DNA of 64,000 nucleotides from Octopus sinensis. Lineage: Eukaryota. This document shows, piece after piece, positions 9,914 to 60,110 of the stretch. Location: positions 81,716,001 to 81,780,000 of the forward strand of contig NC_042998.1 of assembly GCF_006345805.1 (NCBI RefSeq). The letters run 5' to 3'. The notes beneath the pieces are model-generated. The model saw only the letters and a list, made by a program, of their open reading frames with translations, made no database searches and was not told the origin of the DNA. A program made the translations under genes and the position numbers. Position 1 is the first letter of the stretch. The number at the start of each line of letters is the position of its first letter.

Positions 9914-10920
9914 TGTTTCTTTATTAGCCACACAGGGCTGCACACAGACAGAACAAATTACAAGGTAGAGCTTTTCTTTTGGGGGTAAAAAGAGGGGGTT
10001 GGTTTTCGATCAAAAGGGATCGTAAAAGTAAAGAAAGAGGACAAAAAAAAGGGAGGATTTATAAAAAAAGGGGGGAAAGGGAAAAAAAGAAAAGGGGAGA
10101 GGAAAAAAAAGTTGATCAATAGGGATCGTTATCACAGAAATGTCAGTATGAAGTGTAAAGGGGAGGACAGGTGAGGTTTACCCGTGGAAAGACAAGCCTA
10201 CGGAAAAGACCACGGTAACCTCGGTCAATGAAGTCACATGTTATATTCCTTTTTTTTTTGCAAATAAGCAACTCTCTGTATTCATTTTTACGGTTCATAG
10301 AATCATAGTCAAGGTGGCTTCGTTATTCATACGTGCCATCCTTGCTACATTCACCCATCTTTTTTTAAAACATTCACTAGACAAAACTTGCCTCTCTACT
10401 CTCACTTTCCTCTTCAAGTGATACTTGAAGAAGTTGATGAGAGATTGACCAGAGAGGAAAGTGTTTGTCTCTAATCCTTTCAGGCGCGTCCACCAGATAC
10501 ATTCTTTCACCATAGCCACAAGTATGATAAAAACAGCTCTTCCTTCCCGTTTGAAGGAAGGAGGCGTGACGATATTAACGATAGACTCGGCTGATAAACC
10601 GACACGTCCCACACGTGACAGCAGTCGTTCGACATAAGCCCACAGGTCGGAAATTGCTGGACACTGCACGATTGCGTGCAGAGCGGTTTCGTCGCTCTGC
10701 CCGCATCTCGGGCAGGTCGGCCCCGTGTTTCTCGAGCCATGCCTATAGAGCTTATCCCGAACGGGTAGCGCTTCTCGGTAGCACCGTCAGGCCAGGGATC
10801 TCTGGAAGTTGTCCATAGGTCCCGGGCCGAAAGTCGTTTGAAATAGGCGGGTCAGGTATTCCTCGTCGACGCCCAGGTTTGCCCCGAGATCGTCGTCGTA
10901 CCTCCCCTCCACTAATCCCC
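9914..10920 (-). mobile_element. 5'-truncated Tx1/L1-clade LINE (ORF2 C-terminus + 3' UTR)
   Basis: Peptides TFGPGPMDNFQRSLA and LSAESIVNIVTPP...KKRW align with the C-terminus of ORF2 at 42550-45951. 18-bp direct repeat tagatagatagatagata at 9896-9913 and 10921-10938. Confidence 0.92.
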
Positions 10921-11590
10921 TAGATAGATAGATAGATACATACATACATACATACATACATAGACAGATTGACAGATAGATATATAGAGAGTCAGAGAGA
11001 TGAACAGATAGATAGACAGATAAATGTATATAAATATACATAGATGCATACACACATAGGCACACATACACACACACACACTCCACACACACAATCACAC
11101 ACTGAAATACACATTCACATATATTCTTTTTAAGCAAGAAATATAATAAATAGTTCCTCATATGTTCTATAGCTAAATAAATTATTTGTACTTATTTTAA
11201 GGTCTATTTTTGTACTGCAGTTTCAAGTTTGAAAGTTACTAAATTTTAAATGTAAAAGATTATACAATTTATGTGTTTGATTTAAATATTTATATATATC
11301 GAGCAGTTATAAATTCAAATAATAGAATCTTTAAATTTCTTTCATATCTAATGAGAACTTCAGATTAATCTCTGATTTAGAATTTCGCTTATCTCGTGGA
11401 ATATTAAAGAAATTGAGCATGAAATACAAAAGTAGAAAAATAAGTTTCTTCATTTTGTATATTTACCCTACCATTAAAAATGAATGCTAATGCTCTGCTA
11501 CTGTCTTCTTTTTAAGAAGTGGTACTCTTATTCTTTCTATTCAATTGAAAATTGATGTGATAGAAACGTATTAGGAAAGTAAGCATATTA

Positions 11591-12150
11591 AGGCGGTGAG
11601 CTGGCAGAAACGTTAGCACGCCGGGCGAAATGCTTAGCAGTATTTCGCCTGCCGTTACGTTCTGAGTTCAAATTCCGCCGAGGTCGACTTTGCCTTTCAT
11701 CCTTTCGAGGTCGATAAATTAAGTACTAGTTACGCACTGGGGTCGATGTAATCGACTTAATCCGTTTGTCTGTCCTTGTTTGTCCCCTTTGTGTTTAACC
11801 ACTTGTGGATAGTAAAGAAATAGGTATTTCGCCTGCCTTTACGTTCTGAGATCAAATTCCGCCGAGGTCGACTTTGCCTTTCATCCATTAGGGGTCGATG
11901 AATTAATTGTCAGTTGCGTACTAGGGTCGATCTAATCGACAGGCCCTCTCCCCCAAAATGTTTGGCCATGTGCCTAGAATAGAAGTGAATATTATTTTTA
12001 CGTTCTGGTTTCAAATTCTGCCGAACTCAACTTTTCTTTTCATCCTTTCGGGGTCGATAAATTAAGTACCAGTTGCGTACTGGGGTCGATCTAACCCACT
12101 GGCCCCCTCCCCAAAATCATTTCAGGCCTTGTGCCTAGAGTAGAAAAGAA
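11591..12150 (+). mobile_element. SINE family B trimer
   Basis: Head aggcggtgagctggcagaaacgttagcacg, then three copies of gagttcaaattccgccgaggtcgactttgcctttcatcc...gtcgat. Confidence 0.9.
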
Positions 12151-12405
12151 AAGCAAGAATATTTCGAAATGAAACTTTTGAAATGTAACATGTATTTTGA
12201 TAACATCGAAAATTACGTTACATTTTATGGACAATGGAAACCTAAAAGCGAAAGTTACACAGATTATTGTATCAGGCTGGTGAAATAAAGAAGAAAATAC
12301 ATGATGCCATATGCCTGCTAAATGTAACAATGGTTGTTATACTAGAAATGTGTGTATTTGTTTTTAAATCATAGCTCCATTTGTGTTCATTTCTTTTGAC
12401 CAATC

Positions 12406-19366: not shown

Positions 19367-19435
19367 TTATTATTATTATTATTATTCTATGTTTGACTTT
19401 TGCTTTATGTCTGTACAAGTTGGCTCCAAGTCAAC

Positions 19436-19495
<60 letters not shown>

Positions 19496-19497
<2 letters not shown>

Positions 19498-21040
19498 GTC
19501 AGACCTTTATTTTGTATTTGTGCAAGTTGATTTCAAGTTTCGCCCAGAGACCTCAAGAGACATATAGAAGTCCAGGCTGGTGTTATGCCTAGAACGTCAT
19601 ATATTTGGTTTTGCACATAGTATTGGTCTAGAGAATATTTAAGAAAACATAAGAAAATTATGAGTTTGTTTTAAAATTTGAGATTACATACACAGCATTT
19701 TACGTAGGATATGGGCAGAAGCCATGAGCACTATCTTTTAAATTTCTGCCATTTTGGGGTTTCCTAGTATCTGAGCTAGGTAGCAATCAGCCCATTTTGC
19801 TATCATACCTGGGGTTCCTATGATGACAAGTATTGGTTTTGACTCGATGTTCCATATTTTGACAATTTTTATTTGAAGATATTTAAACTTGCTCAGTTTT
19901 TGGTAGGACTTGACAGATGTATTTATGTCGATTGGGACAGATATATCAATGAGGAATCATGATTTTTTCTGAAGTCTTTCAATATAATGTCTGGCCTATA
20001 CACATCTATCTTACTGTTACTTTGATTGGTGAAGTTCGAGAGAAGTGAGGTGTGATCATTTTCAAGCACTGGAGGAGTTTTGTGTTTCCACCAGTTTTTA
20101 TCGTGTAGCAGGTCCAGGTTTTTACAAATTACCCAGTGGATATACTGTGCTACTCTAACATGTCTGTTAAGATACACTACACGCGCAAGAAGACTGCACA
20201 TAGAAACAACATGATCGGTAGTTTCATTTCATTGTTTACATACACATGTTCAGATACTGCCGTTCTTTAATATGTTGGTCTGGTAGTTCCTTGTAGGTAG
20301 GTATTGATCATAGGCTGCTATGATAATCCCTTCTGTTTTTTATTTTAAGCCTGAGATGCGAACCATTGATCGGTTTGGGTTTATTAACATCGACACTATT
20401 AGGTCTCTTGGGGTATTTGCCATTGAAATGTTTTTCTTGCTATGTATCAGTAAGAATACCTAAGCCAGCAGTTTTAGCATGGGTTTCCATACGCTTAGCG
20501 TTTTCAGTGCTTGTTTCCAGTATGTCTAATTCTGGGAATTTTTGTATTTGGGATTCACTTATATATTCCTTTGCCTGTTTTGTTACTGAGTATGATGCTT
20601 TCTTGTTTCCATGCTTCAAAACAAGTTTTAACACCCAGTCATCAGAGTTTTTCAGGTATGTGTTCAGGCCCATTTTGGCAATCTTCATTGTTAATTCCAG
20701 TTGTAAATGTCCGCAGCCTCCCTCTTTTCTTGGCAGGTAAATTCGATCTATATATGCATTAGGGTGGTGTATTCTATGCATTGGCAACAATTTTCGTATT
20801 TTCCTATCAAGATTACATATTTCAGTAATTGACCAGTTAATGATATTGAAACTATGAGTCACGACCGGTATGGCTAAAGTTTTGATCACTTCGATCCTGT
20901 TTCTTGTCTTCAGCTCTGTTTTGATTATTATTGCCCTTACCCTGTGATAATATTATATTCTGATCCCTTTCTGCATCAGTGAATGTTTGATTCCATCACA
21001 TTCAAATATCCCTAAGTATTTGTAGCTCTCCGCTGGCTAT
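19496..21040 (-). mobile_element. R4/Dong-like LINE family B, 5'-truncated and decayed
   Basis: TLAIPVV...DRIYLPRKEGGCG, RHVRVAQYIHW and YRPDIILKD motifs; 3' end abuts (TTA)n. Confidence 0.88.
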
Positions 21041-21147
21041 TGTTGTTGTTGTTGTTATTAGACTGCACATGAAACAATATGATCAATTATCATTTTGTTA
21101 TTATTATTATTATTATTATTACTATTATTATTATTATTATTATTTTA

Positions 21148-22072
21148 TGTTTGACTTTGTACAAGTTGATTCCAAGTCTCACCTAAAGACCTCAAGAGAC
21201 AACAAGTTTGAAAGTCAGGTTGGTGTTATGCCTAGAATGTCATATATTTAGTTTTGCACATAGCATTGTTCTAGAGAATGTTTAGGAAGACATAAGAAAA
21301 TTATGAGTTTGTTTTAAAATTTGAGATTACAGAGACAGTATTTTACGTATGATATGGGCAGTTCCCATGATCATCTTTTGAATTTCTGCCATTTTGGGGT
21401 TTCTGTTATCTGAGCTAGGTAGCAATCAGCCCCTTTTTCTAAGGCACCAGGTATTCTAAGGCAACAGGTATTGTTTTAGTCTTCAGGTTCCACATTTTGC
21501 TAATTTCTGTTTCATGATCTTGTAATTGCTCACCTTTTGACAGGTCTTGACAGATACAACTATGTCGATTGGTACAGTCATATCAATAAGGAGGCATGAT
21601 TTTTCCTGAAGTCTTTGAATAGGATGCCTGCTCTATTCGGATCTATCTTTCTGTCAGTTTGAGATGAGTAAGATGTGATCATTTTCAAGCACTGGAGGTG
21701 GTCGTGTTCCCACAAGTTTTTATCATGGGGCAGGTCAAAGTTTTTGCAAATTACCCAGTGAATATATTATGCTGCTCTCTCATGCCTGCTGAGATACTGT
21801 GTAGGCGCAAAAAGACTGCACATGTAGGTAAGCATTGATCTTGGGCTGTTATGATTTACCCTTCTGTTTCTGATTTTAAGCCAGAAGACACTAACAAATG
21901 ATCAGTAAGGGCTCTGTTAACATAAACACTATTAGCTCTTTTTTGTACTTGCCATTGACAGTTTTGTCTTCCCATTTATCGTAAGAATATCTAAGGCAGC
22001 AATTTTAGCACGGGTTTTCATACGCTTAGCTTTTTCTGTACATGTTTCCAGTGTGTCTAATTCTGGAATTTG
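21148..22072 (-). mobile_element. R4/Dong-like LINE family B, second truncated copy
   Basis: Colinear with 19496-20550; flanked by (TTA)n and (CAT)n. Confidence 0.88.
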
Positions 22073-22157
22073 TATCATCATCATCAGCAGCAGCATCAGC
22101 ATCATCATCATAATCATCATCATAATCATCATCATCATCACTACCACCACCACCACC

Positions 22158-22204
<47 letters not shown>

Positions 22205-22244
22205 TATCATTATCTTTATCGTTATTAATATCATTATTATTATT

Positions 22245-22282
<38 letters not shown>

Positions 22283-22314
22283 TATCATTATGATTATCTT
22301 TATCGTTATTATTA

Positions 22315-22352
<38 letters not shown>

Positions 22353-22386
22353 ATCATCATCATCATCATCATTATCATCATTATTA

Positions 22387-22422
<36 letters not shown>

Positions 22423-22452
22423 TATTATTATTAATATTATTATTATTATTAT
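22073..22452. repeat. (CAT)n/(CAC)n/(TAT)n compound microsatellite
   Basis: Directly visible. Confidence 0.95.
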
Positions 22453-25400
22453 TTCCTCTTTCTTCAAATTTTCTTCCATTTCTCGCCGAGTGTTTTCCGT
22501 AGACCTACTGCAGCGAAGCTTATTGTATGTATTCCCAGATTACACAAGCAAATTCACAGGTAAAATATGTATTTAAAAAAATTAATAAATAAATAAATTC
22601 ATGGATGGATGTTGTTTTCACAGCGATAATGCTCTTCCCAGTACGTGAGCCGTTCCAGTTAACACGATTTTTTGCACTTCCTGTGGGGATGGTAAGCCTG
22701 GTATGATTTTCAAATAGGTTTCAGTACCTTTTTTTTATCATTCCTTGAGATCCTACAATCACTGGTACTCTTGTCGCCTTGAGATGCCACATTTTTTTTC
22801 AATTTCTGTTAGCAACTCTTTATATTTACTGATCTTGTCAAATTCTTTCACCGCTATATTGTGATAGCAAGGAATACTCATGTCAATTAATAAACACACC
22901 TTTTTTGTTTGATCTTTTATGATAATATCAGGTTTATTAGCTTTTATAGTTTTGTCGGTATGTACGGGGAAGTCCGATAGAATCGACGCATTTTCTCCCT
23001 CAGTCACAGCTTCAGGATGGTATTTATACCATTTGTCAGCGGTTTTGATTTTATAATGCCGACATATTGTCCAGTGTAAATACTGGCCGACTCTGTCATG
23101 TATTGCTTTATATTCTACAGGTACTAAGACTCTACACCCTGAGATTAGGTGGTCTATATTTTCAATCTCATCGTTACAGAATCGGCATTTTCAGTCAGTT
23201 CCATTTTTTATCACATTGGCTTTGTAGTTCCGGGTAAATAAGCTTTGGTCTTCAGCAGCTAATATGAAACCCTTAACTCTCTTCCTTTGGCCATGTGCTT
23301 CGTAACCGATGATACATGTGTTTCTGGTCGACATCAGCTTGTTTGCTACAGGCCACATACTTGCCATGGAGAGGTTTCTGTTCCCATCTGCTAGCTAAAT
23401 TTTCATGTGCTTTTGTCTTTGCAATAAATTTTATTTTCTTTGCAGCTGCAGTTGGCGCATTTCCCTCAACTTGATCAATCTGGTTGGCATCTAAGAGATC
23501 AGTAGCGAATTTTTTGCTCTCTTTGAGAATAGAGTGACGTTTTGTAGGTCTTTCATGTTTTTCAACAAGTTTTAGCATCCAATCGTTGGTTGTTTCAAGG
23601 TATTTAGCCAGTCCGATTGTGGTGGATTTGTGCGTAAGTTCAAGCTGGATCAAGCCTCGACCTCCCTGAACTCTGGGAAGGTAAAGGCGATCCACGTCTG
23701 CCTTTGGATGGTGCATCTTATTACAAGTCAGCTGCTTGGGGATTTTTCTGTCAGTTTTCATTATTTCAGTTAAGCACGTTGAAGCTATAAAGAACAACTG
23801 GGACTGCTAAGGAATTTATGGCTAGCACCTTATTATATGCATTCAGCTCAGACTTCAGGACTGCTCGAACTCTTCTATAACATTCCTTCCCAACCCTCTC
23901 TTTCATGCTTGCATGCTGGATACCAGAGCCTTCATTTATTCCTAGGTCTTTATAGGTTTGCTCCCGCTCAAGTTCCTTTATTACTGTTTCGACATCTAAT
24001 TCGATTGAACTTGACTTTACCAATTTCCCTTTCTTAAAAGTGGCTTTGGCACACTTTTCAAGGCCAAACTCTATCCCCATATCATCACTGAATCCTTTCA
24101 CAGTATGTAGTAGTCCTTCAAGCTCTTCATCATCTTTGTCATATAGTTTTAAATCATCCATATAAAATAGATGGCTTATTTTCCAGTTGTCACATTTGTA
24201 GCCATACCCTGTTCTATTCAGTTCACTTGAAAGAGGTATTAATGCTATGCAGAAAATTAGTGGTGAAAGTGAGTCACCTTGGAAAATGCCACAGTTTATG
24301 CTAATATTGTTTGAGCGCAATTCTCCATCAGAATGATATAATTGGAGCTTCGTGTTCCATAGTGACATCGTATACTTTAAAAAATCTGAAATCACAGGAG
24401 AAATTTTGAAAATGTCCTGCGATTTCAGAATCCACGAATGCGGTATGCTTTGAAAGGCTTTTTTATAATCAATCCATGAAAATCTGATATCTCTGCACTT
24501 GTTTTGGCAGTTCTCAAGGATCATGCAATTAATTAGGAGCTGATCTTTGCATCCGTATGTGCTTCGTATGCATCCTTTTTGTTCAGTGGGAAAGAGGTTA
24601 TTCTTTTCCATAAACGTATATGTTTTTTCCTTTAGAATAGATGTCAAAATCTTATAGGTAGTAGACAAACATGTTATAGGTCGGTAGTTTCTTGGGCCTT
24701 CTGTTTCGTTAATTCTTGGGAGGAAGTAAGTAATACCATTTGCCATCCAATGGGGAGTTCTTCCGAGTCTTTCATAATACTATTAAATTGTATTACTAAC
24801 ATTTTGTGTGCTGGCGAGAATGATGAGAGCCAGAAATTTGGTACTTTATCAATACCAGGAGATTTCCCTTATGAGCCTTCGTTAGTGCCCACCTTGGGTC
24901 GGCGATGGAGATGTCTTCCCATACCTGTTCTTGTAGATTTTTGTAGGCATCTTGGGTGCGTTTGATCTAGTCTGCATTTTCATTGTATGGCTTCTCATCA
25001 GTCCTGATTTCTTTCCAAAGTTTTCAACTTCTTCCATTAGGAGTGGATTTTCAATGGTTACTTTTCTTTACCTATTTCCACGTAAAATGATTTGGCATTG
25101 GATTTGAACATCTTATTTTGATTCTAGTATTTGATTCTTTTCTCAAATCTGCGTATTGTCTGAGCTTTTGCTTGAACTTTTTGTTTTAAGTGTTTCTTTC
25201 GCTGACATTAGTTCTCTATTTGAGAGTCCATATTTTCTCACAATCTTCCTGCCTTTTCTTGATCTTACATCATTTCCAGAGATTAGCTCAGTTAATATTG
25301 ATATCACCCTTCGCAATGATTCAATCTCAGATTTAATTCTACTCCTCCAGTTTGATTTTCTTTTCGAATTTGAAATTGTTGGCTTTTTGGGTGTTAAACA

Positions 25401-26220
25401 TCGTCTTTTGATTACTTTAGCAACAGAGTAGATAATTTCATTTAACTTATTAAGATCGGGTTTTAGTTGTATCATTTCTTGTGTAACGCAGTTACCAAAT
25501 TTTATTTGTGTTTTAAGTTGGTGTGCATTTGAGAGTTTATGGAATGATCTCTATGATTGATATTTTTATGCCCTACAACTGCAAGGTCATTCAGAACTTC
25601 CTGCTTCATTTCAGTGATAGATTTTCTTAGTTGTTCAGCAAATATGTGGCCTTCAAATTCTGTTTCGACATCATTTTCCTGGCTGTTTTTTCTAATGTCA
25701 TTATATTTCCCTTTTTCTTCAGGCTCTTGAGTGGTTTCGGCAGATGGTCGCCTTTCAATCAATGCTTGTGGTCCAACATTCCTCACATCTGCTTCGTTAT
25801 TTCTTTCCTGACGTATATTTAGGTCATTCTCTACCACTTTTTTCATAGTGGTTAATTCTGCATCTGTGAGTCTGGTATTTCTGAAGATATCTCTTTTAAC
25901 ATTTGCTAATCTGTTTTCATCCAGGTTTGATCTGCTAGCTGGATTCCGGCTCCTCCAAATTCTGCAGGAGCTTGCGGTGTGTTTCTCTTGGGTTGGCCTA
26001 CTTATTGCAAAGTAATAAGCGTATATTACTTCTTTATATTCTTCCCGGTTCCCTTTAATTATTTTACATTTTTGATTTTGTGGTCGATGTGGTGGTGAGC
26101 TTTGGAGGCTTAAGCGACCTCCAGCTTCGTATTCGGGGAAGATATTCTGAAATTTGAAAATTTTTCGTCGTCAGGCTGACAGCCTCCTGAATAGCCATTG
26201 GACAAGCGATTCGGTGTACT
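22453..26220 (-). mobile_element. Near full-length decayed R4/Dong-like LINE (family A): N-terminal region, RT, Cys-rich region, RLE
   Basis: RT ORF 23766-24746, DRLYLPRVQGGRGL, ANKPDIII...LLIDMSIP; many stops and frameshifts; 3' end in (TTA)n. 5' boundary approximate. Confidence 0.9.
23766..24746 (-). pseudogene. Reverse transcriptase domain fragment of the R4/Dong-like LINE
   Basis: NYRPITCL, DYKKAF, GIFQGDSLSPLIF and FYMDD motifs. Confidence 0.93.
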
Positions 26221-26379
26221 GTTTGAAAAAAATTCTTTCTTTTTAAGTGAAGTTAAATTATTATTAAATTTTCATTTTTAAAAAATATTTTTTTATTTAT
26301 TTAATTATTATTTTTTTTACATATCTATTTTATTTTTAACCACTAATCTTCATGCAAGGGCTGCATATATCATCATTAG

Positions 26380-26664
26380 CAGCAGTAGCACCACCACCAG
26401 TTTTTGTAGTAGCAGCAGCAATATCACATTCAGCAGCAGCAGCAGCGGCAGTGATAATAGCAGTATTCTCCTCCTTCTTCTTCTTCTTCTTCTTTTTTCT
26501 TCTTCTTCTTTTTTCTTCTTCTTCTTCTTCTTCTTCTTCTTCTTCTTCTTCTTCTTCTTCTTCTTCTTCTTCTTCTTCTTCTCTCTTCTTCTTCTTCTTC
26601 TTTTCTTCTTCTTCTTCTTCTTCTTTTCTTCTTTTTCTTCTTCTTCTTCTTCTTATTATTATTA
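26380..26664. repeat. (GCA)n/(TTC)n/(TTA)n microsatellite block
   Basis: Directly visible. Confidence 0.93.
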
Positions 26665-28100
26665 TGTTTTTTCCTTCTTTCTTCAAATTTTCTTCCGTTT
26701 CTCGCCGAGTGTTTTCCATACACCTAGGTCAGAGAAAGGCATTGTATGTATTCCCAGATTACACGCGCCAATTCACGGATAAAATATGTATTTAAAAGTT
26801 AATAAATAAATAAATTCATGGATGGATGTTATTTTCACAGCGATAGTGCTCTTCTCAGTACATGAGCCGTTCCAGTTAATACGATTGTTTGCACTTCCTG
26901 TAGGGATGGTAAGCCTGGAATCATTTTCAAATAGGTTTCAGTACCTTTTTTTTTATCATTCCTAGAGATCCTACAATCACTGGTACTATAGTCGCCTTGA
27001 GATGCCACATTTTTTCAATTTCTATTAGCAGGTCTTTATATTTACTAATCTTGTCAAATTATTTCGCCGCTATATTGTGATCACAGGGAATACTCATGTC
27101 AATTAATAAACACATCCTTTTTGTCTGATCTTTTATAATGATATCCGGTTTATTGGCTTTTATAGTCCTGCTGGTCTGCACGGGGAAGTCCCATACAATC
27201 GACACATTTTCCCCCTCAGTCACAGCTTCAGGGTGGTGTTTATGCCATTTGTCAGTGGTTTTGATTTTATAATGCCGACATATTGTCCAGTGTAAATACT
27301 GGCCGACTCTGTCATGTCTTGCTTTATATTCTGCAGGTGCTAAGACTCTACACCCTGAGATTAGGTGGTCTATTGTTTCAATCTCATCGTTACAGAATCG
27401 GCATTTTCAGTCAGCTCCACTTTTCATCAAATAGCCTTGGTAGTTCCAGGTAAATAAGCTTTGGTCTTGAGCAGATAATATGAAACCTTCACTCTCTGCT
27501 TTTAGCCCTGAACTTCGTAACCATTGGTGCGTGTGTTTCTGGTCGACATCAGCTTGTTTGCTACGGGCCACACACTTGCCATGGAGAGGTTTCTGTTCCC
27601 ATCTGCTAGCTAAATTTTCAAGTGCTTTTGTCTTTGCAATTAATTTTATTTTCTTTGCAGCTGCAGTTGGCGCATTTCATTCAGCCTGCTCAATCTGGCG
27701 GGTATCTAAGAGATCAGCAGCGAATTTTTTGCTCTCTTTGAGAATAGAGTGAAGTTTTTTAGGTCTTTCATGCTTTTCAACAAGTTTTAGCATCCAATCG
27801 TTGGTTGTTTCAAGGTATTTGGCCAGTCCGATTGTGGTGGTTTTGTATGTAAGTTCAAGCTGGATGAAACCTCGACCTCCCTGACCTCTGGGAAGGTAAA
27901 GTCGATCCACGTCCGCCTTTAGATGGTGCATCTTATTACTAGTCAGTAGCTTGCGTATTTTCCTGTCAATTTTCATTATTTCACTGGTATTCCAGTTAAG
28001 CACATTGAAGCTAAGGAGAACAACTGGTACTGCTAAGGAATTTATGGCTAAAACCTTTTTATATGCATTCAGCTCAGACTTCAGGACTGCTCGGACTCTT
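26665..28100 (-). mobile_element. Second, 5'-truncated copy of R4/Dong-like family A
   Basis: Highly similar to 22453-23875; ends at a junction with a headless SINE B. Confidence 0.92.
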
Positions 28101-28625
28101 AGTGGTATTTCGTCTGCCGTTACGTACTGAGTTCGAATTCCGCCGAGGTCGACTTTGCCTTTCATCCTTTCGAGGTCGATAAATTAAGTACCAGTTACGC
28201 ACAGTGGTCGATGTAATCGACTTAATCCGTTTGTCTGTCCTTGTTTGTCCCCTCTGTGGGTAGCCCTTTGTGGGTAGTAAAGAAATAGGTATTTCGTCAG
28301 CCGCTACGTTCTGAGTTCAAATTCCGCCTAGGTCGACTTTGTCTTTCATCCTTGCGAAGTCGATGAAATGAATACCAGTTACGCACTGGGATCGATATAG
28401 TCGACTTCCTTCTCTTGTCTGTCCTTGTTTGTCCTCTCTGTGGTTAGTCTCTTGTGAGTAGTAAAGAAATAGGTATTTCTTCTGTCTCTACGTTCAAATT
28501 CTGCTGAGGTCGACTTTGCCTTTCATCCTTTCGGGGTCGATAAATTAAGTACCAGTTGCGTACAGGGCTCGATGTAATCGACTGGCCCCTTTCCCCAAAA
28601 TTTCAGACCTTGTGTCTAGAGGATA
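28098..28625 (+). mobile_element. SINE family B trimer lacking the 5' head
   Basis: Three ggtatttc...gtcgactttg...gtaccagtt units; the first two end in agtaaagaaata. Confidence 0.88.
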
Positions 28626-34544: not shown

Positions 34545-34750
34545 ATGGCTTCAAATTTTGGCACAGAGCCAGCAATTTCAGTGGAGAGATAAGTCGATTT
34601 CATTGATCTCAGTAATCACCTGGTACTTATTTTATCGACCTCGGAAGGATGTAAAGCAAAGTCAACCTCGGCGAAATTTAAACTCAGAACGTAACGTCGG
34701 TTGAGATGCCACTAAGCATTTTATCCGGCGTGCTAACCATTTTGCCAGTC
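34545..34750 (-). mobile_element. SINE family B, diverged
   Basis: tggtacttattttatcgacctcggaaggatg...ggcgtgctaac. Confidence 0.8.
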
Positions 34751-35164: not shown

Positions 35165-36555
35165 AAACAGAGCTCCGAAATCTATCCACAAACATCGAAA
35201 GCAAGGACATCGTATGGAGCCAAAGATTTACAAACAAAAGATTGGACTGTATCCGAGTAAGTAATACTCATTGAAATTTATTACTATTTTCGAAACGAAA
35301 TGATGTATTTTGACTCGATATCATCTCCACCTCTAACACAACACATGTAAACATGCGTGGAAACATTATGATCCATCAACACCAGATCATCCCCGACCCC
35401 AAACACCATGTACAAAGGAAATACGAAGAAATTAAATACCACCGATATTATTCAACCCAAGAATAACAATCGGGAGGTAGGTACTTTAAACTTACAACAC
35501 AAAATGTACGAAAAACTACACGTGAAAACCAATGTGACAACAGAAATGAACGGGCCGGTACCCTACGACCGTCAAAGTAATGGGCCAGACGTTGTTCCTC
35601 ATGTCCCGCAAATAAAACCCAAAAGACATAAACGGACACGTGAGGAATACATTTCTATCCTACACGTATACTTCACAGCAGTGCTCTACCCAAAGAATGA
35701 AAACACAACAACACATACATATAAAACAGGGAAGGAAATTAACATAAATATAGACTTGGATACAGCAATGAACCCTAATAAACTAGCTAACGTGCGAAGA
35801 TACATTCTCAACGCAAAAAAAAAAAAAAATATCAGAAATAGAAATAGAACATCTAAAAGAAAAAATACACCAGCAAAATGTAGATAGAAGCCACACAACA
35901 ATGCCCAATAATATAAACACTGAAACAGTAAAACACGAAGACAAACGTAACATTCCCAACAAACACGATGTAAACAAAAAACAACAAACCCAGACTGTAA
36001 GGATGCATAATAATACACGACAAACAGCAAGCCAAAATACGGCAAACAAACATAAATAAGAAAGAAAGCGGCACAAATCTAAAATCTGGAAATAACGAAG
36101 GGGAGCCTAATGATTATGATACTATAAAAAGTAGAATAATCAAAGAACTGAAAAACACAGATCTCAAGATGGACCACCGACCATAACTCCCAAAAATCAA
36201 AATAGACGAAACAACAACACCAATTATAAACAGCATAAACCTAGCCGTCACGGAACTAATAGCCACTGAAACAAAAAGCGATATCACTGAGCTAAATGAC
36301 TTAGTATACGCAGCACCCACTGCAGCCACAAAAGAAGCTGGATACTCACTCAAACCCATCCAAACAGGAGTACCATCACCCAAACAAACCCTTTGGATAA
36401 ATAACATCCAAAACAAAATACAAAAAATGAGAAAAGATCTGTCGATTATTAATGAAATCAGTAGACAATCAATGCTACTGAGCAACAAGAAGAAAACAAA
36501 AATACTCCGCAAATATAACATATGATAACATCTGCTCAACATAACCCCATAATTC
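35165..36555 (+). mobile_element. 5' portion of an R4/Dong-like LINE, decayed
   Basis: KRTREEY...YF, NKLANVRRYIL and LNDLVYAA resemble the N-terminal region of the 22453-26220 element; starts right after (AAT)n. Confidence 0.7.
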
Positions 36556-36557
36556 TC

Positions 36558-40754: not shown

Positions 40755-40792
40755 GGCGCAGGAGTGGTTGTGTGGTAAGTAGCTTGCTAACC
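40755..40792 (+). mobile_element. SINE A 5' head fragment, left of the Tx1 insertion
   Basis: ggcgcaggagtggttgtgtggtaagtagcttgctaacc matches 16344-16380. Confidence 0.9.
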
Positions 40793-41104
40793 TCACTGAC
40801 AGAAGAGTGACTTTGCTTACCGTACTACGGTTTGGACGCGTTTTCTTCCCGGTAAGAGTTTTGCTGTGTTGTTAATTGTTGAATTCCTACTACTGAAGAT
40901 TTGCCTTTAAACGTTGCTGAACTGTCTTGTTCTCCGGTTTTACCGGGAAGTAATTGAATAATTTCTTACCGTTGACTATTTTTGTGCCCCTCCCCCGAAT
41001 GGGGGTGGGAATTGGAATTTTTTAACTGCTTTTTTGAACTACTTTGGAAGAAAAACTTTCTATAGGTTTCCCAGTTTTGTGGGAAACCAATACTCGTAAT
41101 TTTT

Positions 41105-42184
41105 GTGTTGTCTAATTTCAACAGAATAATGTCTGTTGAAATTATTCACGAAAGTAGTGCTCTTGAGGAGAGCAATGTTAAAAAAATTTCTGAGGTAGCC
41201 GCAGTGGCTACCGAGAAAATTGACATCGATGTCAACCACCTCGTCGAGCTATTTAAAAGAATGCAAGAGGAGGGTGGTGATGTTAAAATATCACCCTCCG
41301 CCAGTATCGTGGAGACCGAGAAGCGGACCGTAGTGTTTAAAACTTTCTGTCCACAAAGCAGAAGGTTCAAACACTTTGAAAAAAGCACCATCGAGAAATG
41401 CCTGTCCCCGATTTGGAAGGACATCGTGTACGTCGCCAGGGGACGGGCATATGGCACTGTGGATGTCCGCTTCTCGGGGGAAGAAATGGCCCGCGGGCAT
41501 TCTGTGAACCCCCAAAAAACCAAGGAGGTGGTACTTTTCCCAAGCTATAGGGGACGCAGGACGTCCCGGGTCAGGATTGTAGAAGCCCCGCCGGAAGTAG
41601 ATCCGGTAGAGGTAGTGGCCGCCCTGTTATATAAAAGGGCGGACAAAATAAAAATACTAGAAGTAACATGCTCTACCCCTCGATTTTGGCTCGGGCGTAA
41701 CATTAATATATTAATTCAAGGAACAGCGGAGGACCTGCAGCTCCTTCCTGAGAGGGTGCTCGTGGGCGAGAACGTAGCCCTCAGGGTACAGGTCGAAGGC
41801 CGAAAACCCACCTGTTACGCCTGCGGCAAAAAGGGCCACATTCGTGTAGACTGTCCAGACAAGCAAAAGAAACCGCAGACACCAGGCCCCTCAGATAATA
41901 AAAAAGTCCCTACCCTTGCAAACACACCTACCCCTACAAAAACAAAAAATCCCACTCCTGCTGTTACGGTGCCAACCCCAAAACAGACTGAAGAAAAAAC
42001 CCAGCCCTCGCACTCACAAACCCCTACACTATTAAAACCTCCCACCCCCCTAAAAACTGCGGCGCCTACCGAACAAACTATTGCTACCCCAGACGATACC
42101 ATGGAGGTATCAGAGGGGGGATTTACACCAGTTTGTAAAAGAATTCGTGCAGCATCCCCGTCCACATCCCCCTACAAAAAATAA
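41105..42184 (+). CDS. LINE ORF1 protein with CCHC zinc knuckle and Pro/Thr-rich tail (first ATG 41129; probably extends to 42532)
   Basis: CYACGKKGHIRVDC; the same frame reopens after stops near 42182-42196 and runs to 42532. Confidence 0.88.
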   Translation: MLSNFNRIMSVEIIHESSALEESNVKKISEVAAVATEKIDIDVNHLVELFKRMQEEGGDVKISPSASIVETEKRTVVFKTFCPQSRRFKHFEKSTIEKCLSPIWKDIVYVARGRAYGTVDVRFSGEEMARGHSVNPQKTKEVVLFPSYRGRRTSRVRIVEAPPEVDPVEVVAALLYKRADKIKILEVTCSTPRFWLGRNINILIQGTAEDLQLLPERVLVGENVALRVQVEGRKPTCYACGKKGHIRVDCPDKQKKPQTPGPSDNKKVPTLANTPTPTKTKNPTPAVTVPTPKQTEEKTQPSHSQTPTLLKPPTPLKTAAPTEQTIATPDDTMEVSEGGFTPVCKRIRAASPSTSPYKK

Positions 42185-42549
42185 TAAAAACAATGACACA
42201 CCACAGACACGGAAAAAAAATCCCGCTCAACTGGCCCAGAAAAAGAAGACAAAAAAGAAAATGAACTCATATTAATTGAATTCGACACACAAGACAAATA
42301 CATAAACGATATTGTGGTTCAGCATCAGTCAGCAAGACTGTACAACAAATACAGAGATCGAAATAGACTCGCGTGGATTGCGGAAACAACGTTAAAACAA
42401 TTAAAAGACAGACACCCAAACGCCATCCGGCATATCGCGAACTTGCCGGACTATCTGAAGAAAGAGGAGAAAGAAGGGGCCCACAAACGTGTAGTGAGGT
42501 CGGCCCCCACCTCTCCAACGAAATGTAAGTAGAACTTTTACTTTTTGTA

Positions 42550-45500
42550 ATGGCTTCGCTTAACCTTGTTTGTTTAAATGTGCGTGGTCTGAGTTCGAAG
42601 TGGAAGCAGGCTTGTTTCCTCGACGACCTCAGATCACATGATATACATGTGATGGTTGCTACAGAGACCAAGCTGGACAGCCTACAAACCTTCTCGCCTC
42701 TCCTGAATGGCTACGAGAAAATCATGTCTCCTGGCCAGACCGGAGGGCGAGGGGGCGTAGTGGTACTGATCCGTAAAGACTTGGCTCTACAGACAAGTAC
42801 AGTCTATGTAGACCCAGAAGGTGGGCTGGTCGTCCTTGATGTGACATATAGCAGTAAGGCCTTCAGGTTGATCGGACTCTATGCACCTTGTGCTAGAGGT
42901 TTCCAAACTGATTTTATCGGCGCCTAGAGGGCTTTCTCGTGACCTTCGAAGACTTTAGTGATATTAGGGGACTTTAATGCTATCGTTGACGTACACATCG
43001 ATAGCGTTGGCTCGATCTATAGGAAAGTGAACTCACGTCTCGTGGATCTGCTTAAGCGGTTTCAGCTAGCAGATCGTTACAGACTTGACCATCCGAACGT
43101 CCCAGAGTGGACCTGGATGAGTGGCGACGGAAGGTTCAAGTCTTATCTAGACAGGATAGTGATAAGAACTAGAGATAAGTCTAGTTTTAGTTGTCCACAG
43201 CTCGTCCAGGTGCCCTATACTGACCATAGAATGGTCACGTGTAGACTGGACATAGATAGCACACTTAAGATAGGAACCGGCTACTGGAAGCTGAACAAGT
43301 CTATTTTGACACGCGAGGCATACCGTAGCCGGATTAAGGTGTTAGTGCAGAGGGCGTTAACCGGAGCCGTGGTTAATAACCGGTGGTGGTTCAGCCTCAA
43401 AAGAGCCATTCGATTCGAGTCCATTAGATTTAGTAAACAACTAAGACTAGATAGGGCTAGAATAGAAGGGCAACTAGTTAAGAACTTAGAGGAGGCGTTG
43501 AGGTTGGGCTCTGCATCTCACATTTTAGCGGCGAGAACGGCATTAGACCGTCACCTCAAAACCAAACATGAGGGATGTAGAGTCCGGGCTAAAGTACGAG
43601 CATTGGGCCGTGAGGGAATTCATGTTGCCGGATGGGCCCGCACGATAGAAACACAGCGTGGAAACGATGCCACAATTGGGTCTCTTGTTGATGAAAACGG
43701 ATGCACGATCAAGAAGCGGGACGAGATGTGTGAGGCACTTCACAAGCACTTCGCCGAGTTGTTCGGGAGGTGCGGGACGCTGGATCATGGTGAGGCCCTT
43801 AGGGACTTCCTGTCTGGTGGCCCGCGCCTCTCGACACGAGAGGCTGAGTGCTGTGAAGGGCCAATCACAGCCGAGGAAGTAATCGAGGTGTTGGGCAAGT
43901 GCCCCGGGGAGACGTCGCCGGGTCTCGATGGTCTGCCCTATGAATTTTATAGAAGTATGCCAGACTTGTTCGGGCACCTGCTGGCTAGCGTCTACGCCAA
44001 CTGGCAGCAGAATGGGAGAATTCCCAAGTCTGCGAGCCGGGGGGCGGTGACGTTGATCAGGAAGGACCCGAACAAAGGGGACGAGATAGGGAACTTCAGG
44101 CCCATAACTCTGTTAAACACAGAGTTAAAGATTCTGGCCAAGGTGCTAGCAAAAAGGTTGGCGCGGGTCCTGGACAAACTTGTCGGGGAAGCGCAAACGT
44201 GCGCTATCCCCGGCAGAACGATCCACGACAATCTCCACCTTATACGCTACTCCTTAGAGAGAGTGGGGAAGCTTTCTGGCGCAGGGGGAGCACTGGTACA
44301 TTTAGACCAGTCCAAAGCATTTGATAGGGTCGACCATCGGTACCTGGCGGCGGTCCTCGGAGAGGCTGGCCTAGGCCCGACCTTTCGAGGTTGGATCGCT
44401 GCTTTGTATAGCGACATCGAGTCTGTAGTCAAGGTGAACGGTTCCTTTTCGAAGCCGTTCAGGATCGAGCGTTCAGTTCGTCAAGGGTGTCCCCTGTCCT
44501 CGCTCCTATACGTATTGGCTCTTGAGCCTTTGCTGCGGAAGTTGGAGGCACTAGGGGGCGCGCCGCATGATCTATGGTGTGGAAGAGGAGCTACGGCATA
44601 TGCGGATGACACCTCCATCATCGTGGCAGACGAAGGCCAGCTTCCAGTGGTGGAAGAGGCCATCAAAAGCTACGAGGCGGTGGCAGGAGCAAAGGTTAAC
44701 AAGGACAAGTCGGTCGGTTTGCAACTCGGCACCTGGAGGGGCAAGCCGATGCCGTCCAATAACGTCGTAGGGCGTTGGACGGAAGGTCATGTTAAGCTGC
44801 TCGGAGTCTGGTTCGGGCCAGACCTCCAGATTGAGAAAAATTGGAGTGAGGTGGCCAACAATGTGACCGCTCTAACCCAGACCTGGTCTGGGCGGGCGTT
44901 ATCCCTGCTAGGGAAGGCGGAGGTGGTGCAGATGTTTATAGCATCAGTAATCACCTACCGTCTGACCGTGGTGCCTTGCCCCGATTTGTGGCTGAACAAG
45001 TTGGAGAGAATCCTTTTCCGATTTTTGTGGAAAGGAGGAAAGCCACTTGTAAAGCGCTCTGTCTGCTGCCAGAAACCGCTAAAGGGTGGGCTAGGGATGC
45101 CTTGGCTGAGGATGCGAAAACTCGCGTTAAGGTTGAGGCACCTCTGGCTTTACCTGGATGGAGAGCAGGTGTGGTCGCCGCACGTCCGGTTCTACCTTCC
45201 CCAGTTAACATCCCTAACGGACATCGGTGCATGGATCAAGCGGAGACCTAAACTGAATGAATGGCATTTGGAGTGCCGTCAGGCGCTCCAGCTACTATCT
45301 CGGGTGGGCAACGCCGGCAACAGGAGTTCCACCACGGATTTCTATAGCGGGTTAGTGGAGATTAAGTCCGAAGACGCCTTGGGGGAGACCCTGGGCTACG
45401 ATGAAAATCAGTTGGTCAACCTGTTCCGGAGGACGTTCGGGCCGGGGTATCTGGATAATTACCAGAAATCCCTAGCCTGGCAGTGTTTCCGTGCGGCTTT

Positions 45501-45951
45501 ACCTGTTCGCGACAAGCTGTCAAGGCACGGTAGTGCCGTCTCGCCGACATGCCCGCGATGTGAGCAGGATAGGGAGACCGTCTTGCACGCATTCGTGGAG
45601 TGTCCGGAGTTATCGGGACTGATAGCTTTTGTTGAACAACTGTTGTCAGTGATGGGAAGAGTACAGCTATCAGCTGAGTCTATCATCGAGATTGTGCCGC
45701 CCCCTTTCCTTAACAGGGAAAGAAAGGCTTGTTTTTTCTGTGTAGTAGCCATACTGAAAGAAACAGTATGGAAGACGCGTACGAAAGGTATAGTGACAGG
45801 CACCTTTGTCTCCGGCCAGGGGTTGATTAACTATTTTAGTTACCACCTCAGTAGCAAAATCAGGCTGGAGAAGAGGTGTCTGTCACGAGATATGTTTGTG
45901 AAAAGATGGAAGCCTGTGGCATACAAGATGGGTATGTTTGGCACCAGGTAA
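42550..45951 (+). CDS. LINE ORF2: APE endonuclease, reverse transcriptase and C-terminal Cys/His motif (one in-frame stop at 42925-42927 between two apparent compensating indels)
   Basis: CLNVRGL, ATETK, LGDFN, LDRI, TDH; FRPITLLN, LDQSKAFD, VRQGCPLS, AYADD; CPRC...ETVLHAFVEC. ORFs 42550 and 42958 are in the same frame. Confidence 0.95.
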
Positions 45952-46179
45952 GTGTGACCGGATCAGAAAGTAAAGGTTCTACCCGGATGGCTGGGTGTCC
46001 GTCCTTCGACATGATCATTAATATTTTTAAACATTGCCTTCGTAAAATTCATTGTTTATAATCTTATCCGTAATTTCATTCGAAAATCGTAACTGTGTTA
46101 AGCTACTTCACCCTTTATATTTGTCTGTCCTTGTTTGTCCGCTCTTTGTAAATGCCTAAATGGCAAATAATATGAAATA

Positions 46180-46322
46180 AAGTAGCTTGCTAACCAACCA
46201 CATGGTTCCGAGTTCAGTCCCACTGCATGGCATCTTGGGCAAGTGTCTTCTGCTATAGCCCCGGGCCGACCAATGCCTTGTGAGTGGATTTGCTAGACGG
46301 AAACTAAAAGAAGCCTGTCGTA

Positions 46323-46376
<54 letters not shown>

Positions 46377-46590
46377 ATTATGTGTTTGTGTGTCTGTGCT
46401 TGTCCCCCTAGTATTGCTTGACAACCGATGCTGGTGTGTCCCCGTCACTTAGCGGTTCGACAAAAGAGACCGATAGAATAAGTACTGGGCTTACAAAGAG
46501 TAAGTCCTGGGATCGATTTGCTCGACTAAAAGGCGGTGCTCCAGCATGGCCGCAGTCAAATGACTGAAACAAGTAAAAGAGTAAAGAGAA
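46180..46590 (+). mobile_element. SINE A remainder, right of the Tx1 insertion
   Basis: Continues aaccacatggttccgagttcagtcccactgc..., colinear with 16381-16835. Confidence 0.92.
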
Positions 46591-57697: not shown

Positions 57698-58507
57698 TTA
57701 ACTTTTCAACTAGAGGCTCGTTTTGAACTGAATATAATCATGATCACGCCCTTATTAACGCTACCTCCATAATCCCAAAGCGCAAAGTAGCGGCATCCCC
57801 ACTCACTTCAGTGTAACAAGTGTTTCAATATCCAAACAGAATGCAACATATTTTTAGAAAATCATGCAGGCGTACGCTCGTACAAATTCGGTATCACTTA
57901 TTACATTCTCGCGTTCTGTCATTCCGTCCTCTGTGAGTTACTATCTGGATTCCCCTCCTCTAAAACAGTTCTGCAAATACAGAGCAAATACATATTTATT
58001 CTCTCTCTCTCTCTCTCTCTCTCAATCGTCTCCCCCTCTCTCTCTTTCACACACGTATATCTCAACAAATATCTCATGTTATTTTCATATTTTCTTACAA
58101 CAGTTTAAACAGAATCTATATTATTGAGTAAATAGGTCCATATCACTTTTATTTTAGCAACTTTATATGATCAATATATTAGCAAGTAAAAACTACTTCC
58201 ACGCTTTTTATAATGACAATAATATATCACCATAAACACGACATAGGAAATTTTTTCTCGATTGAACGTAACCACTATAGAAATAGGAGAAACCATCAGC
58301 TTTTATGCAAACACATTATGCAGCGCAGGGAGCCCCTATAACTTTGTTAGGTAAATCCTAAAAACCCTCCTAAACCTGTGCAAATATATGCAGCATACAA
58401 CTGCACTAAGCAAATACCACTGTACAACAAGACAAGTGGTGGGGGACACTTTTGCTTAGAAGACCTTATCCATACTCCTAAATCCGTACGCAACAATAGA
58501 GTTTAGA

Positions 58508-58901
58508 AAGGCGGCGAGCTGGCAGAAACGTTAGCACGCCGGGTGAAATGCGTAGCCGCATTTCGTCTGCCGTTACGTTCTGAGTTCAGATTCCGCCGAG
58601 GTCGACATTGCCTTTCATCCTTTCGGGGTCGATAAATTAAGTACCAGTCACGCACTGGGGTCGATGTAATCGATTTAATCCGTTTGTCTCTCCTTGTTTG
58701 TCCTCTCTGTGTTTAGCCCCTAGTGGGTAGTAAAGAAATAGGTATTTCGTCTGTTTTTACGTTCAAATTCCGCCGAAGTCGACCTTGCTTTTCATCATTT
58801 CGGGGTTGATAAATTAGGTACCAGTTATGTACTGGGGTCGATCTAATCGACTGGGCCCCTCCCCCAAAATTTCGGGCCTTGTTCCTAGAGTAGAAAAGAA
58901 T
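58508..58901 (+). mobile_element. SINE family B dimer with 13-bp TSD
   Basis: aatagagtttaga at 58495-58507 and 58902-58914. Confidence 0.92.
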
Positions 58902-59753
58902 AATAGAGTTTAGAGACTCACAGTTTAACAACATATGCGATACAAATTAACTAAAAACATTCCCTAATTGTGAACAACTGTATTCTGTTTCAAACTGCAT
59001 GGGCCTCTCGATCCGTTTTAAATGATATATTCAGTATAACATCATAAATATAACGTGTTTACAGCTATCTTAGTACCTATACTCTATGACAAGTTACATA
59101 ACAAGGAATCAATTAATGGTTAATTTTAGTTTATTTATACAACCCTGTAACAATTCTTTACACTTCAACTTAAATACTACTTTCAGTATTCTAATTATAA
59201 TTCCTGAACGGCCCTCATTCCAACTTAAATCCAAAATTTATATAGTATAAATTAATCACTCAATCAACATTTACTGAAACTTTCATTAATATAATGTATA
59301 TCACCACAAAACTACTCTCAACCTTAAATACAACTTTCGTTATCACTGAACACTACTCAATAAAGCTTTCTTGCACTTCGGCTTAAATATTACTTTCACA
59401 CTCACACATTCTTACACTCGACCTTAACTGTGGTTTTCCAAATCACTATAAACAACAGTGACGTTTCCATACACTCCACCCTACATGTCACGGTATGCAA
59501 ATCAAGACAGATTTTAGCGCTTAATTTCTTAATTTTTTCATTAAGTAAAATTAAGTATGTTACCCACACGTTAAGCGCTATTTTCAATAGCAAGATATAT
59601 GTCGCAGGACAACACCTGACTCCGCCCTAAATATTACATTCATTGCCACTATATAAAACCTAGGGAACATCTCTTACTTCAGCTTTACTTCATCATGCAG
59701 CAGAAATGTAGAGATTAAAAGTAAATTACTCAGCCAATATTAACCGCTTCTTT

Positions 59754-60110
59754 GAGGCGGCGAGCTGGCAGAAACGTTAGCACGCCGGGCGAAATGCGTA
59801 GCCGTATTTCGTCTGCAGTTACGTTCTGAGTTCAAATTCCGCCGAGGTCGACTTTGCCTTTCATATTTTCGGGGTCGATTAAATAAGTACCAGTTACGCT
59901 ATATGGTCGATATAATCGACTTAATCCGTCCGTTTGTCGCTCCTTGTTTGTCCTCTCTGTGTGTAGCCCCTTGTGGGTAGTAAAAGAAATAGGTATTCTG
60001 AGTTCAAATTCCGCTGAGATCGACTTTGCCTTTCATCCTTTGCCTTTCATCCTTTTGGGGTCTATAAATTAAGTACCAGTTGTTATCCTTGTGCCTAGAG
60101 TAGAAAAGAA
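59754..60110 (+). mobile_element. SINE family B dimer inserted in the tandem array
   Basis: Canonical head and core; second unit partly deleted. Confidence 0.88.

What the first reader, a model, noticed from the sequence alone, without database searches (positions are those of the whole stretch)
11765..11822. SINE family B carries an internal segment matching the Tx1-like LINE 3' end
Seen: tttgtctgtccttgtttgtcc (21 nt) is identical in the LINE 3' UTR (46120-46140) and the SINE (11765-11785, also ~28230), and both continue through a short stem-loop to ...gaaata. The tail of the second Tx1 copy (minus strand of 9914-9960: tctgtgtgcagccctgtgtggctaataaagaaaca) matches the distal SINE part (tctgtgtgtagccccttgtgggtagtaaaagaaata, ~59955). 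Known: SINE/LINE tail sharing marks the mobilising partner and is typical for CR1, L2 and RTE, much less so for animal L1/Tx1. Inference: a Tx1-dependent SINE with a conserved stem-loop recognition signal.
Basis: partly seen in the sequence, partly recalled or inferred. Interest (0 to 1): 0.78.

Follow-up and report, generated by a model that had tools for sequence, protein, structure and literature searches.

The report
Octopus SINE borrowing a Tx1 tail
A very abundant short jumping element in an octopus-like genome usually ends in the same 57-base tail as many L1/Tx1-type long jumping elements there, so it is likely copied by their enzyme, a pairing the literature searches run here found only in plants and an alga.

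Summary
Confirmed and extended. The 21-mer is exact at window 11765, 28230 and 46120, in 27 of 30 copies of this LINE family, and 74,405 times genome-wide. It is not really an internal segment: 50 of 64 position-ordered SINE B elements end in this tail, and 51 of 91 full-length tail-ended copies carry a target-site duplication (median 16 bp; control 0.5%). The tail plan (UG/pyrimidine tract, small hairpin, AATAAAGAAAT, no poly(A)) is shared by about 20 divergent L1/Tx1-group clusters. Their stems differ by clade yet keep pairing (18 of 19 clusters; arm-swap p about 0.004), although RNAalifold found no consensus pairs. The window LINE is probably not the mobiliser: it inserts at one site in SINE A heads (28 of 30), and the SINE's hairpin matches other clusters better. 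No LINE carrying the whole SINE tail was found. Tx1 membership rests on domains and targeting, not on a tree with named references. The paper searches found no animal SINE with an L1/Tx1 tail; Repbase and Dfam could not be checked. The scan noted Tx1-into-SINE targeting before, on other genomes.

The parts
11590..11680 (+). SINE B tRNA-like head; A-box-like stretch near 11601-11612, B-box-like near 11664-11674
   Evidence: Sequence; the box consensus is recalled; ARAGORN calls no tRNA, Rfam gave nothing relevant on two other copies
11681..11764 (+). SINE B central body (resembles the Meta/MESC domain from recall; untested)
   Evidence: Self-BLAST, about 14 copies in the window
11765..11822 (+). 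Tx1-type tail: 21-mer tract, CCCCT(T/C)TGTGT, hairpin (mutated in this copy), AGTAAAGAAATA
11823..12149 (+). Two further SINE B body units; the first restarts at head position about 51 (GGTATTTCG); both end in the alternative tail
11576..11589 (+). Left copy of a likely target-site duplication of the whole array (12 of 14 identical to 12150-12163)
12150..12163 (+). Right copy of that likely duplication
28098..28621 (+). 5'-truncated three-unit SINE B array with two Tx1-type tails (first 28230-28287) and a final alternative tail
58508..58902 (+). SINE B dimer: full unit with Tx1-type tail, then a unit with the alternative tail; 13-bp duplication at 58495-58507 and about 58903-58915
59755..60110 (+). 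SINE B with Tx1-type tail followed by a deleted second unit
40793..46179 (+). Full-length L1/Tx1-group LINE (family 1): ORF1 with zf-CCHC from about 41129; ORF2 from 42550 with endonuclease, RT and zf-RVT, frameshifted near 42915 in this copy
   Evidence: Pfam; best PDB match human L1 ORF2p, E 5e-57, against R2 at 1e-20; another copy has intact 467- and 1130-aa frames
46120..46179 (+). Family 1 3' tail: 21-mer, hairpin TGCC-TAAAT-GGCA (46153-46165), ends ATGAAATA, no poly(A)
40777..40792 (+). Left 16-bp duplication, inside the head of a SINE A copy that begins at 40755
46180..46195 (+). Right 16-bp duplication; the rest of SINE A follows to about 46585
9914..10921 (-). 5'-truncated second L1/Tx1-group LINE (family 2) with zf-RVT; tail hairpin AGCC-CTGTGT-GGCT; sits in (TATC)n

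Best explanation
SINE B is a tRNA-headed SINE whose usual 3' end is a 57-base tail shared with this genome's L1/Tx1-group LINEs, and it is likely copied by the ORF2 protein of one such LINE, which is predicted to recognise the tail (tract, hairpin, A(A/G)TAAAGAAAT) and start reverse transcription just behind it. Shown: the tail homology, the fixed end at AAAGAAATA, duplications of about 16 bp, no poly(A), and a biased target (GGT, AGA or TAT after the cut). Inferred: the SINE took the tail from a LINE by template switching, replacing an older tail; the donor is an extinct or unsampled family close to the clade with the GCCC/GGGY stem; ORF2 binds the tail. Where the tail looks internal, as at 11765, it is followed by more SINE body that restarts at head position 51 or 17. 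Both positions match the target bias, so these arrays likely arose by insertion into other SINE B copies and were possibly recopied as read-through multimers.
For: 72 of 87 LINE tails align to the SINE tail better than any shuffle; best 46 of 57 bases over the full length and 41 of 45 over the distal part (a few loci appear twice). The plan holds across 20 clusters under 85% identity, far older than the SINE (about 5% from consensus), which sets the direction LINE to SINE. 50 of 64 elements end in the tail. Duplications: 26 of 41 against 5% in controls; 51 of 91 against 0.5%, median 16 bp, starting right after AAAGAAATA in 28 of 45. Family 1 LINE duplications are 16 bp. Targets start GGT, AGA or TAT in 32 of 45 against 7% background. 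A hairpin of at least 3 bp ends within 3 nt of the anchor in 18 of 19 clusters; 1 of 2000 shuffles and 62-100 of 20000 arm swaps reach the observed score; stems change clade by clade on the ORF2 tree.
Against: No LINE with the entire SINE tail was found: 0 among 50, 30 and 30 inspected hits of three exclusion patterns with 240, 268 and 140 hits. RNAalifold gave 0 consensus pairs and single folds are weak. The hairpin test used related, hand-chosen representatives and 3-5 bp stems. Copies ending in the alternative tail have similar duplications (5 of 8), so duplication length does not single out the partner. No other LINE clade's duplications were measured. How the arrays form is unresolved: units within an array are no more alike than between arrays (0.889 against 0.882, p 0.39), and the age difference between tailed and alternative-tailed units is not significant (p 0.27).
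Confidence: 0.75

Rival explanations
1. The tail is LINE-derived and the SINE uses these LINEs' enzyme, but the tail is conserved as a 3'-end processing or priming signal (AATAAA with upstream UGUA/UG-rich elements), and the hairpin is not a specific recognition signal.
For: AATAAA and TATGT are the most invariant columns; the stems are short and fold weakly; family 1 and the SINE share the tract but not the stem. The processing-signal motifs are recalled.
Against: The tails shown run straight into target DNA with no A-run (one mis-picked tail, L224, aside); family 1 lacks AATAAA; the commonest SINE variant has AGTAAA; the stems covary.
Confidence: 0.13
2. The tail entered a SINE master by template switching but rides as a passenger; another LINE clade (RTE, CR1, Dong) copies the SINE.
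For: Dong/R4-like and other LINE fragments lie in the window; 12 of 64 elements end in a different tail; the exact partner was not found.
Against: The SINE ends at the same nucleotide as the LINEs and has no tail of another LINE behind it in 50 of 64 elements.
Confidence: 0.06
3. The window's own LINE family (family 1) is the mobiliser.
For: 26-nt exact identity in the proximal tail; 16-bp duplications; one SINE B copy (L106) sits at about the family 1 site in SINE A.
Against: Family 1 is site-specific: 30 of 30 3' junctions begin AAGTAG, against 0 of 45 SINE B targets listed; its hairpin and end differ; it is 99% self-identical and younger than the SINE burst.
Confidence: 0.05
4. Chance likeness of low-complexity pyrimidine tracts, or a SINE scrap lodged in one LINE copy.
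For: The 21-mer is two near-copies of a 10-mer.
Against: 27 of 30 family loci carry it; the reversed control has 0 genomic hits; the homology covers the whole 57 nt.
Confidence: 0.01

Closest known systems
ZmSINE2/ZmSINE3 with LINE1-1_ZM (maize) and SINEX-3_CR with L1-1_CR (Chlamydomonas); PMC3472496 and PMC3747384, passages and Table 1 read
   Same: A tRNA SINE shares a conserved 3' end with an L1-clade LINE; hairpin with variable, compensating stem and conserved flanks.
   Different: Here the host is an animal, the LINEs are target-preferring Tx1-type, there is no poly(A) or poly(T) end, and many clusters share the plan. Those papers list only 3 of 58 pairs with L1 tails, none in animals.
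SINEU with Tx1-Mar (crocodilians); PMC4494074, parts 1, 3 and 4 of 5 read
   Same: Short retroposons inferred to use Tx1; Tx1 families that target another mobile element.
   Different: SINEU has U1/U2 heads, the link rests on shared targets, and the paper found no LINE sharing the SINEU-1 3' end. Here the evidence is a shared tail on a tRNA-headed SINE.
Stringent SINE/LINE pairs such as UnaSINE1/UnaL2 and bivalve HCD SINEs (PMC3747384 table; PMC11481361 passages)
   Same: LINE-derived tail on a SINE with a conserved body; tail swapping; tandem SINE arrays.
   Different: In the passages seen the partners are L2, CR1, RTE, Nimb or I; 'Tx1' does not occur in the main text of PMC11481361 or SINEBase (PMC3531059).
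Octopus SINEs OK, OR1, OR2 (Ohshima and Okada 1994; not read, seen only as cited in PMC4824008, PMC4758252, PMC5804259)
   Same: tRNA-derived octopus SINEs; SINE B or SINE A may be one of them (OR1 or OR2 is cited as a CORE-SINE).
   Different: The sequences could not be compared; none of the passages seen names a LINE partner.
Target-specific Tx1 families: Tx1L in Tx1D, Keno in U2, Kibi and Koshi in microsatellites (PMC4494074 introduction)
   Same: Family 1 inserts at one site of SINE A; family 2 inserts in (TATC)n.
   Different: The target is the tRNA-like head of a SINE.

Membership tests
SINE (SINEBase definition) | Short, interspersed, non-coding, at least 100 copies | tested here: met
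   About 233-nt monomer; 74,405 exact tail 21-mers; dispersed loci
SINE (SINEBase definition) | tRNA-derived head with A and B boxes | tested here: inconclusive
   Box-like motifs seen against a recalled consensus; no ARAGORN or Rfam call
SINE (SINEBase definition) | Pol III transcription | tested here: inconclusive
   Two RNA runs of a related coded organism gave equal reads on both strands and no start or end peaks
SINE (SINEBase definition) | Target-site duplications | tested here: met
   51 of 91 against 0.5%
L1 group LINE | ORF1 plus ORF2 with APE endonuclease, RT and C-terminal zinc motif; RT closest to L1 | tested here: met
   the endonuclease hit is below Pfam's cut-off on the window fragment (21.6 against 24.5 bits)
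Tx1 clade | Monophyly with named Tx1 elements in an RT tree | not testable with these tools
   No named Tx1 reference among the 120 listed homologues or the cluster members read
Tx1 clade | zf-CCHC ORF1 and target preference | tested here: met
   zf-CCHC (described as consistent with Tx1 in PMC5203782 passages); family 1 targets SINE A in 28 of 30, family 2 is followed by ATATCTA in 19 of 20
Stringent SINE/LINE pair | Shared 3'-terminal sequence | tested here: met
   met at clade level, no single family matches the whole tail
Stringent SINE/LINE pair | Conserved stem-loop with compensatory change | tested here: inconclusive
   Position-fixed test positive; RNAalifold negative
Stringent SINE/LINE pair | Tail required for mobilisation by the LINE protein | not testable with these tools
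   Needs a retrotransposition assay
MetaSINE / MESC superfamily | 66-bp Meta domain after the head | tested here: inconclusive
   The resemblance is recalled; motif searches in the readable supplements found nothing, and one file of each paper was not searchable

The most novel reading that the evidence does not exclude
The first animal SINE with a tail from the L1/Tx1 group, showing that a whole radiation of cephalopod Tx1 LINEs uses stringent, poly(A)-free recognition of a compensating 3' hairpin; the SINE also homes into its own head, helped by read-through RNA that pairs with the target.
Probability: 0.4. Interest if true: 0.72.

Novelty: new variant of a known kind. Interest (0 to 1): 0.58.

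Why it matters
Whether the ancestral L1-group enzyme recognised a specific 3' RNA signal or any poly(A) RNA is an open question (PMC3472496), argued so far from two plant or algal cases. An animal case with about 20 natural tail variants, young intact LINE copies and a SINE with at least 74,000 tail units makes the question testable by stem swaps. It would also name the likely enzyme behind one of the most abundant SINEs in an octopus-type genome, where most recently active SINE families are unclassified (PMC13282606, Table 1).

Tried and rejected
Three exclusion patterns to find a LINE carrying the whole SINE tail returned mutated SINEs, 5'-truncated tails, family 1 and two relatives. A search with L141, a tail that looked LINE-like, returned a satellite. 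RNAalifold on 26 tails gave no pairs. Local tandem duplication as the general source of arrays is not supported. An age test of insertion against multimer copying was inconclusive: p 0.27 for tailed against alternative-tailed units, p 0.037 for successive tailed units. No LINE was found upstream of the alternative tail: of 106 hits, 10 lacked a detected SINE body and none looked like a LINE end. RNA reads gave no sign of a discrete transcript. Homologue, cluster and Atlas look-ups gave no Tx1 name. Nine paper searches found no animal SINE with an L1/Tx1 tail; Repbase, Dfam and most subscription papers are not covered. The SINEBase supplement and one supplementary file each of PMC4824008 and PMC4758252 could not be read and may hold the SINE's name.

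Full report
Observation. The 21-mer is exact at 11765, 28230 and 46120 and nowhere else in the window. The quoted tails at 9914-9960 (minus) and near 59955 are correct. The genome (2.72 Gb) holds 74,405 exact copies and none of the reversed control. The host looks like an octopod: the best named ORF2 homologue is from Argonauta hians at 63%.

The LINE. Window 40793-46179 is a full-length element with a zf-CCHC ORF1 and an endonuclease-RT-zf-RVT ORF2, closest in the PDB to human L1 ORF2p; another copy has intact 467- and 1130-aa frames. I call it Tx1-type from ORF1 and targeting; no named Tx1 reference was available for a tree. Thirty loci found with its 3' end are 99% alike and 27 carry the 21-mer, so it is a family feature. 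The query held no SINE A sequence, yet all 30 junctions begin AAGTAG and 28 continue as SINE A, whose copies are only 88% alike. At the 5' end 18 of 20 have the SINE A head; 7 of 20 show an exact 16-bp duplication and most others differ by one or two changes. These are independent insertions at one site. The second fragment (family 2) is followed by ATATCTA in 19 of 20 loci.

The tail is shared across the group. From 114 loci gathered with zf-RVT and with divergent queries, 86 gave a tail and fell into 20 clusters at 85% identity; 28 gave none. The plan is a UG/pyrimidine tract ending near CCCCTCTATGT, a short hairpin, then AATAAAGAAAT (a longer A/T end in the family 1 clade), and then target DNA without poly(A). 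Against the 57-nt SINE tail consensus, 72 of 87 tails score above any shuffle (a few loci are duplicates). The proximal 25-28 nt match family 1 and the L127 clade exactly; the distal part matches the L112 and L237 clusters (41 of 45, 40 of 46). No LINE carried both halves in 110 inspected hits of three exclusion patterns. The donor is therefore extinct, unsampled, or the tail is recombinant. The LINE clusters are much older than the SINE units (about 5% from consensus), so the direction is LINE to SINE.

Hairpin. Single folds are weak and RNAalifold on a MAFFT alignment found no pairs. A test fixed to the 19 nt before the 3' anchor found a stem of at least 3 bp ending within 3 nt of the anchor in 18 of 19 clusters (24 of 25 representatives). 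One of 2000 shuffles and 62-100 of 20000 arm swaps matched the score (unconstrained version). On a tree of ORF2 ends the stem changes by clade: GCCC/GGGY, GCC/GGC, CCT/AGG, GATC/GATC, GATT/AATC, GCCA/TGGC, TGTC/GACA. The representatives are related and were chosen by hand, so this is moderate evidence. The SINE carries GCCC-CTTGT-GGGT or GGGC in 43 of 89 tails as the two commonest forms.

Where the SINE ends. I took the first 30 listed 21-mer hits on contig 1 and 40 further ones, and dropped 6 loci that repeated an array, leaving 64 elements. Fifty end in the tail (three of them cut short), 12 in another tail, 2 in the body; 44 have one tail and 20 have two to four. The sample is conditioned on the 21-mer and does not give the share of all SINE B copies with this tail. 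Duplications were found in 26 of 41 full-length tail-ended copies against 5% in permuted pairs, and over all loci, including those picked by likeness to the window copy, in 51 of 91 against 0.5%. Among 45 outside simple repeats the median is 16 bp, 28 start right after AAAGAAATA, and 32 targets begin GGT, AGA or TAT against 7% background.

Why it looks internal here. All four tailed copies in the window continue into more SINE body. Arrays restart at head position 51 (GGTATTTCG) or 17 (AGAAACG). Both sites fit the target bias, and the tail variant is linked to the next bases (AGT with GGT, AAT with AGA; Fisher p 1e-4), which points to distinct masters with different read-through. Units within arrays are no more alike than between arrays, against simple local duplication. 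Whether arrays form by fresh self-insertion or by copying multimers is open. The flagged copy is a three-unit array that ends in the alternative tail and has a 12-of-14 duplication around the whole, so this tail did not necessarily prime this particular insertion.

Mechanism. Inferred: a Pol III transcript of the SINE presents the LINE-type tail; an L1/Tx1-group ORF2 binds it, nicks a preferred site, and primes at AAAGAAATA, possibly helped by a few read-through bases pairing with the target; second-strand nicking about 16 bp away gives the duplication. Shown are the tail, the end point, the duplications and the target bias. Binding, stringency and Pol III transcription are untested; RNA runs of a related coded organism gave symmetric strands and no defined ends. 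The SINE is held by runs under six coded organism labels, and the tail is covered in the four runs laid.

Comparison. Ohshima lists 58 SINE/LINE pairs, three with L1 tails, all in maize or Chlamydomonas (PMC3472496 passages; PMC3747384 passages and Table 1). Crocodilian SINEU is linked to Tx1-Mar by shared targets, with no shared 3' end found for SINEU-1 (PMC4494074 parts 1, 3, 4). SINEBase built LINE-derived consensuses for Bov-B, CR1 and L2 only (passages). Passages of PMC11481361, PMC5786205, PMC4824008, PMC4758252, PMC5804259, PMC5203782 and PMC10702118, and part 1 plus passages of PMC13282606, name no such pair. Nine searches found none (listed under Tried and rejected). Repbase, Dfam and the 1994 octopus SINE paper were not seen, so prior annotation is possible.

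Verdict. A real SINE/LINE tail partnership of a known kind with an unusual partner group. Confidence in mobilisation by an L1/Tx1-group enzyme through this tail 0.75; new variant of a known kind; interest 0.58.

Noticed in passing
window 40755-46585; L001-L030, L321-L340: Family 1 is a young LINE that inserts at one site in the tRNA-like head of SINE A. In several copies the 5' copy of the target differs from the 3' copy and reads as a shared variant, as if the LINE RNA carried target sequence at its 5' end. L142 and the element upstream in L333 are relatives at the same site.
   Followed up: yes
window 9914-10921 (-); L061-L080: Family 2 is followed by ATATCTA in 19 of 20 loci, mostly inside (TATC)n, like the microsatellite-targeting Kibi and Koshi.
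   Followed up: partly
L232-L256 and L261-L284: Other clusters have their own recurring downstream sequence (one starting TTGTTACAATCATCTG, one with CCAGACCTTTTAAGGTCTAG), which suggests further target-specific families; the targets were not identified. Many copies sit in tandem about 5.5 kb apart.
   Followed up: no
window 58853-58902 and 34546-34590 (-): The alternative SINE B tails also hold a GGC-CTTGT-GCC hairpin with the same loop and an A-rich end, so they may be earlier tails from the same LINE group; no donor was found.
   Followed up: partly
L279: A LINE of this group whose tail runs directly into the body of an old SINE B copy.
   Followed up: no
window 46420-46440 and other SINE A copies: SINE A holds TGTCTGTG(T/C)TTGTCCCC after its microsatellite, which resembles the proximal tract of the LINE tail.
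   Followed up: no
window 19367-28100, 35372-35887, 47739-48690: Decayed LINE fragments of another clade (RVT_1 hit at 23766-24779; Dong/R4-like from recall) next to (TAA)n-type repeats.
   Followed up: no
window 36000-38600 (-): A third, heavily deleted L1/Tx1-group remnant.
   Followed up: no
L171-L190: An A/T-rich satellite-like repeat with many direct and inverted copies per locus (739 matches).
   Followed up: no
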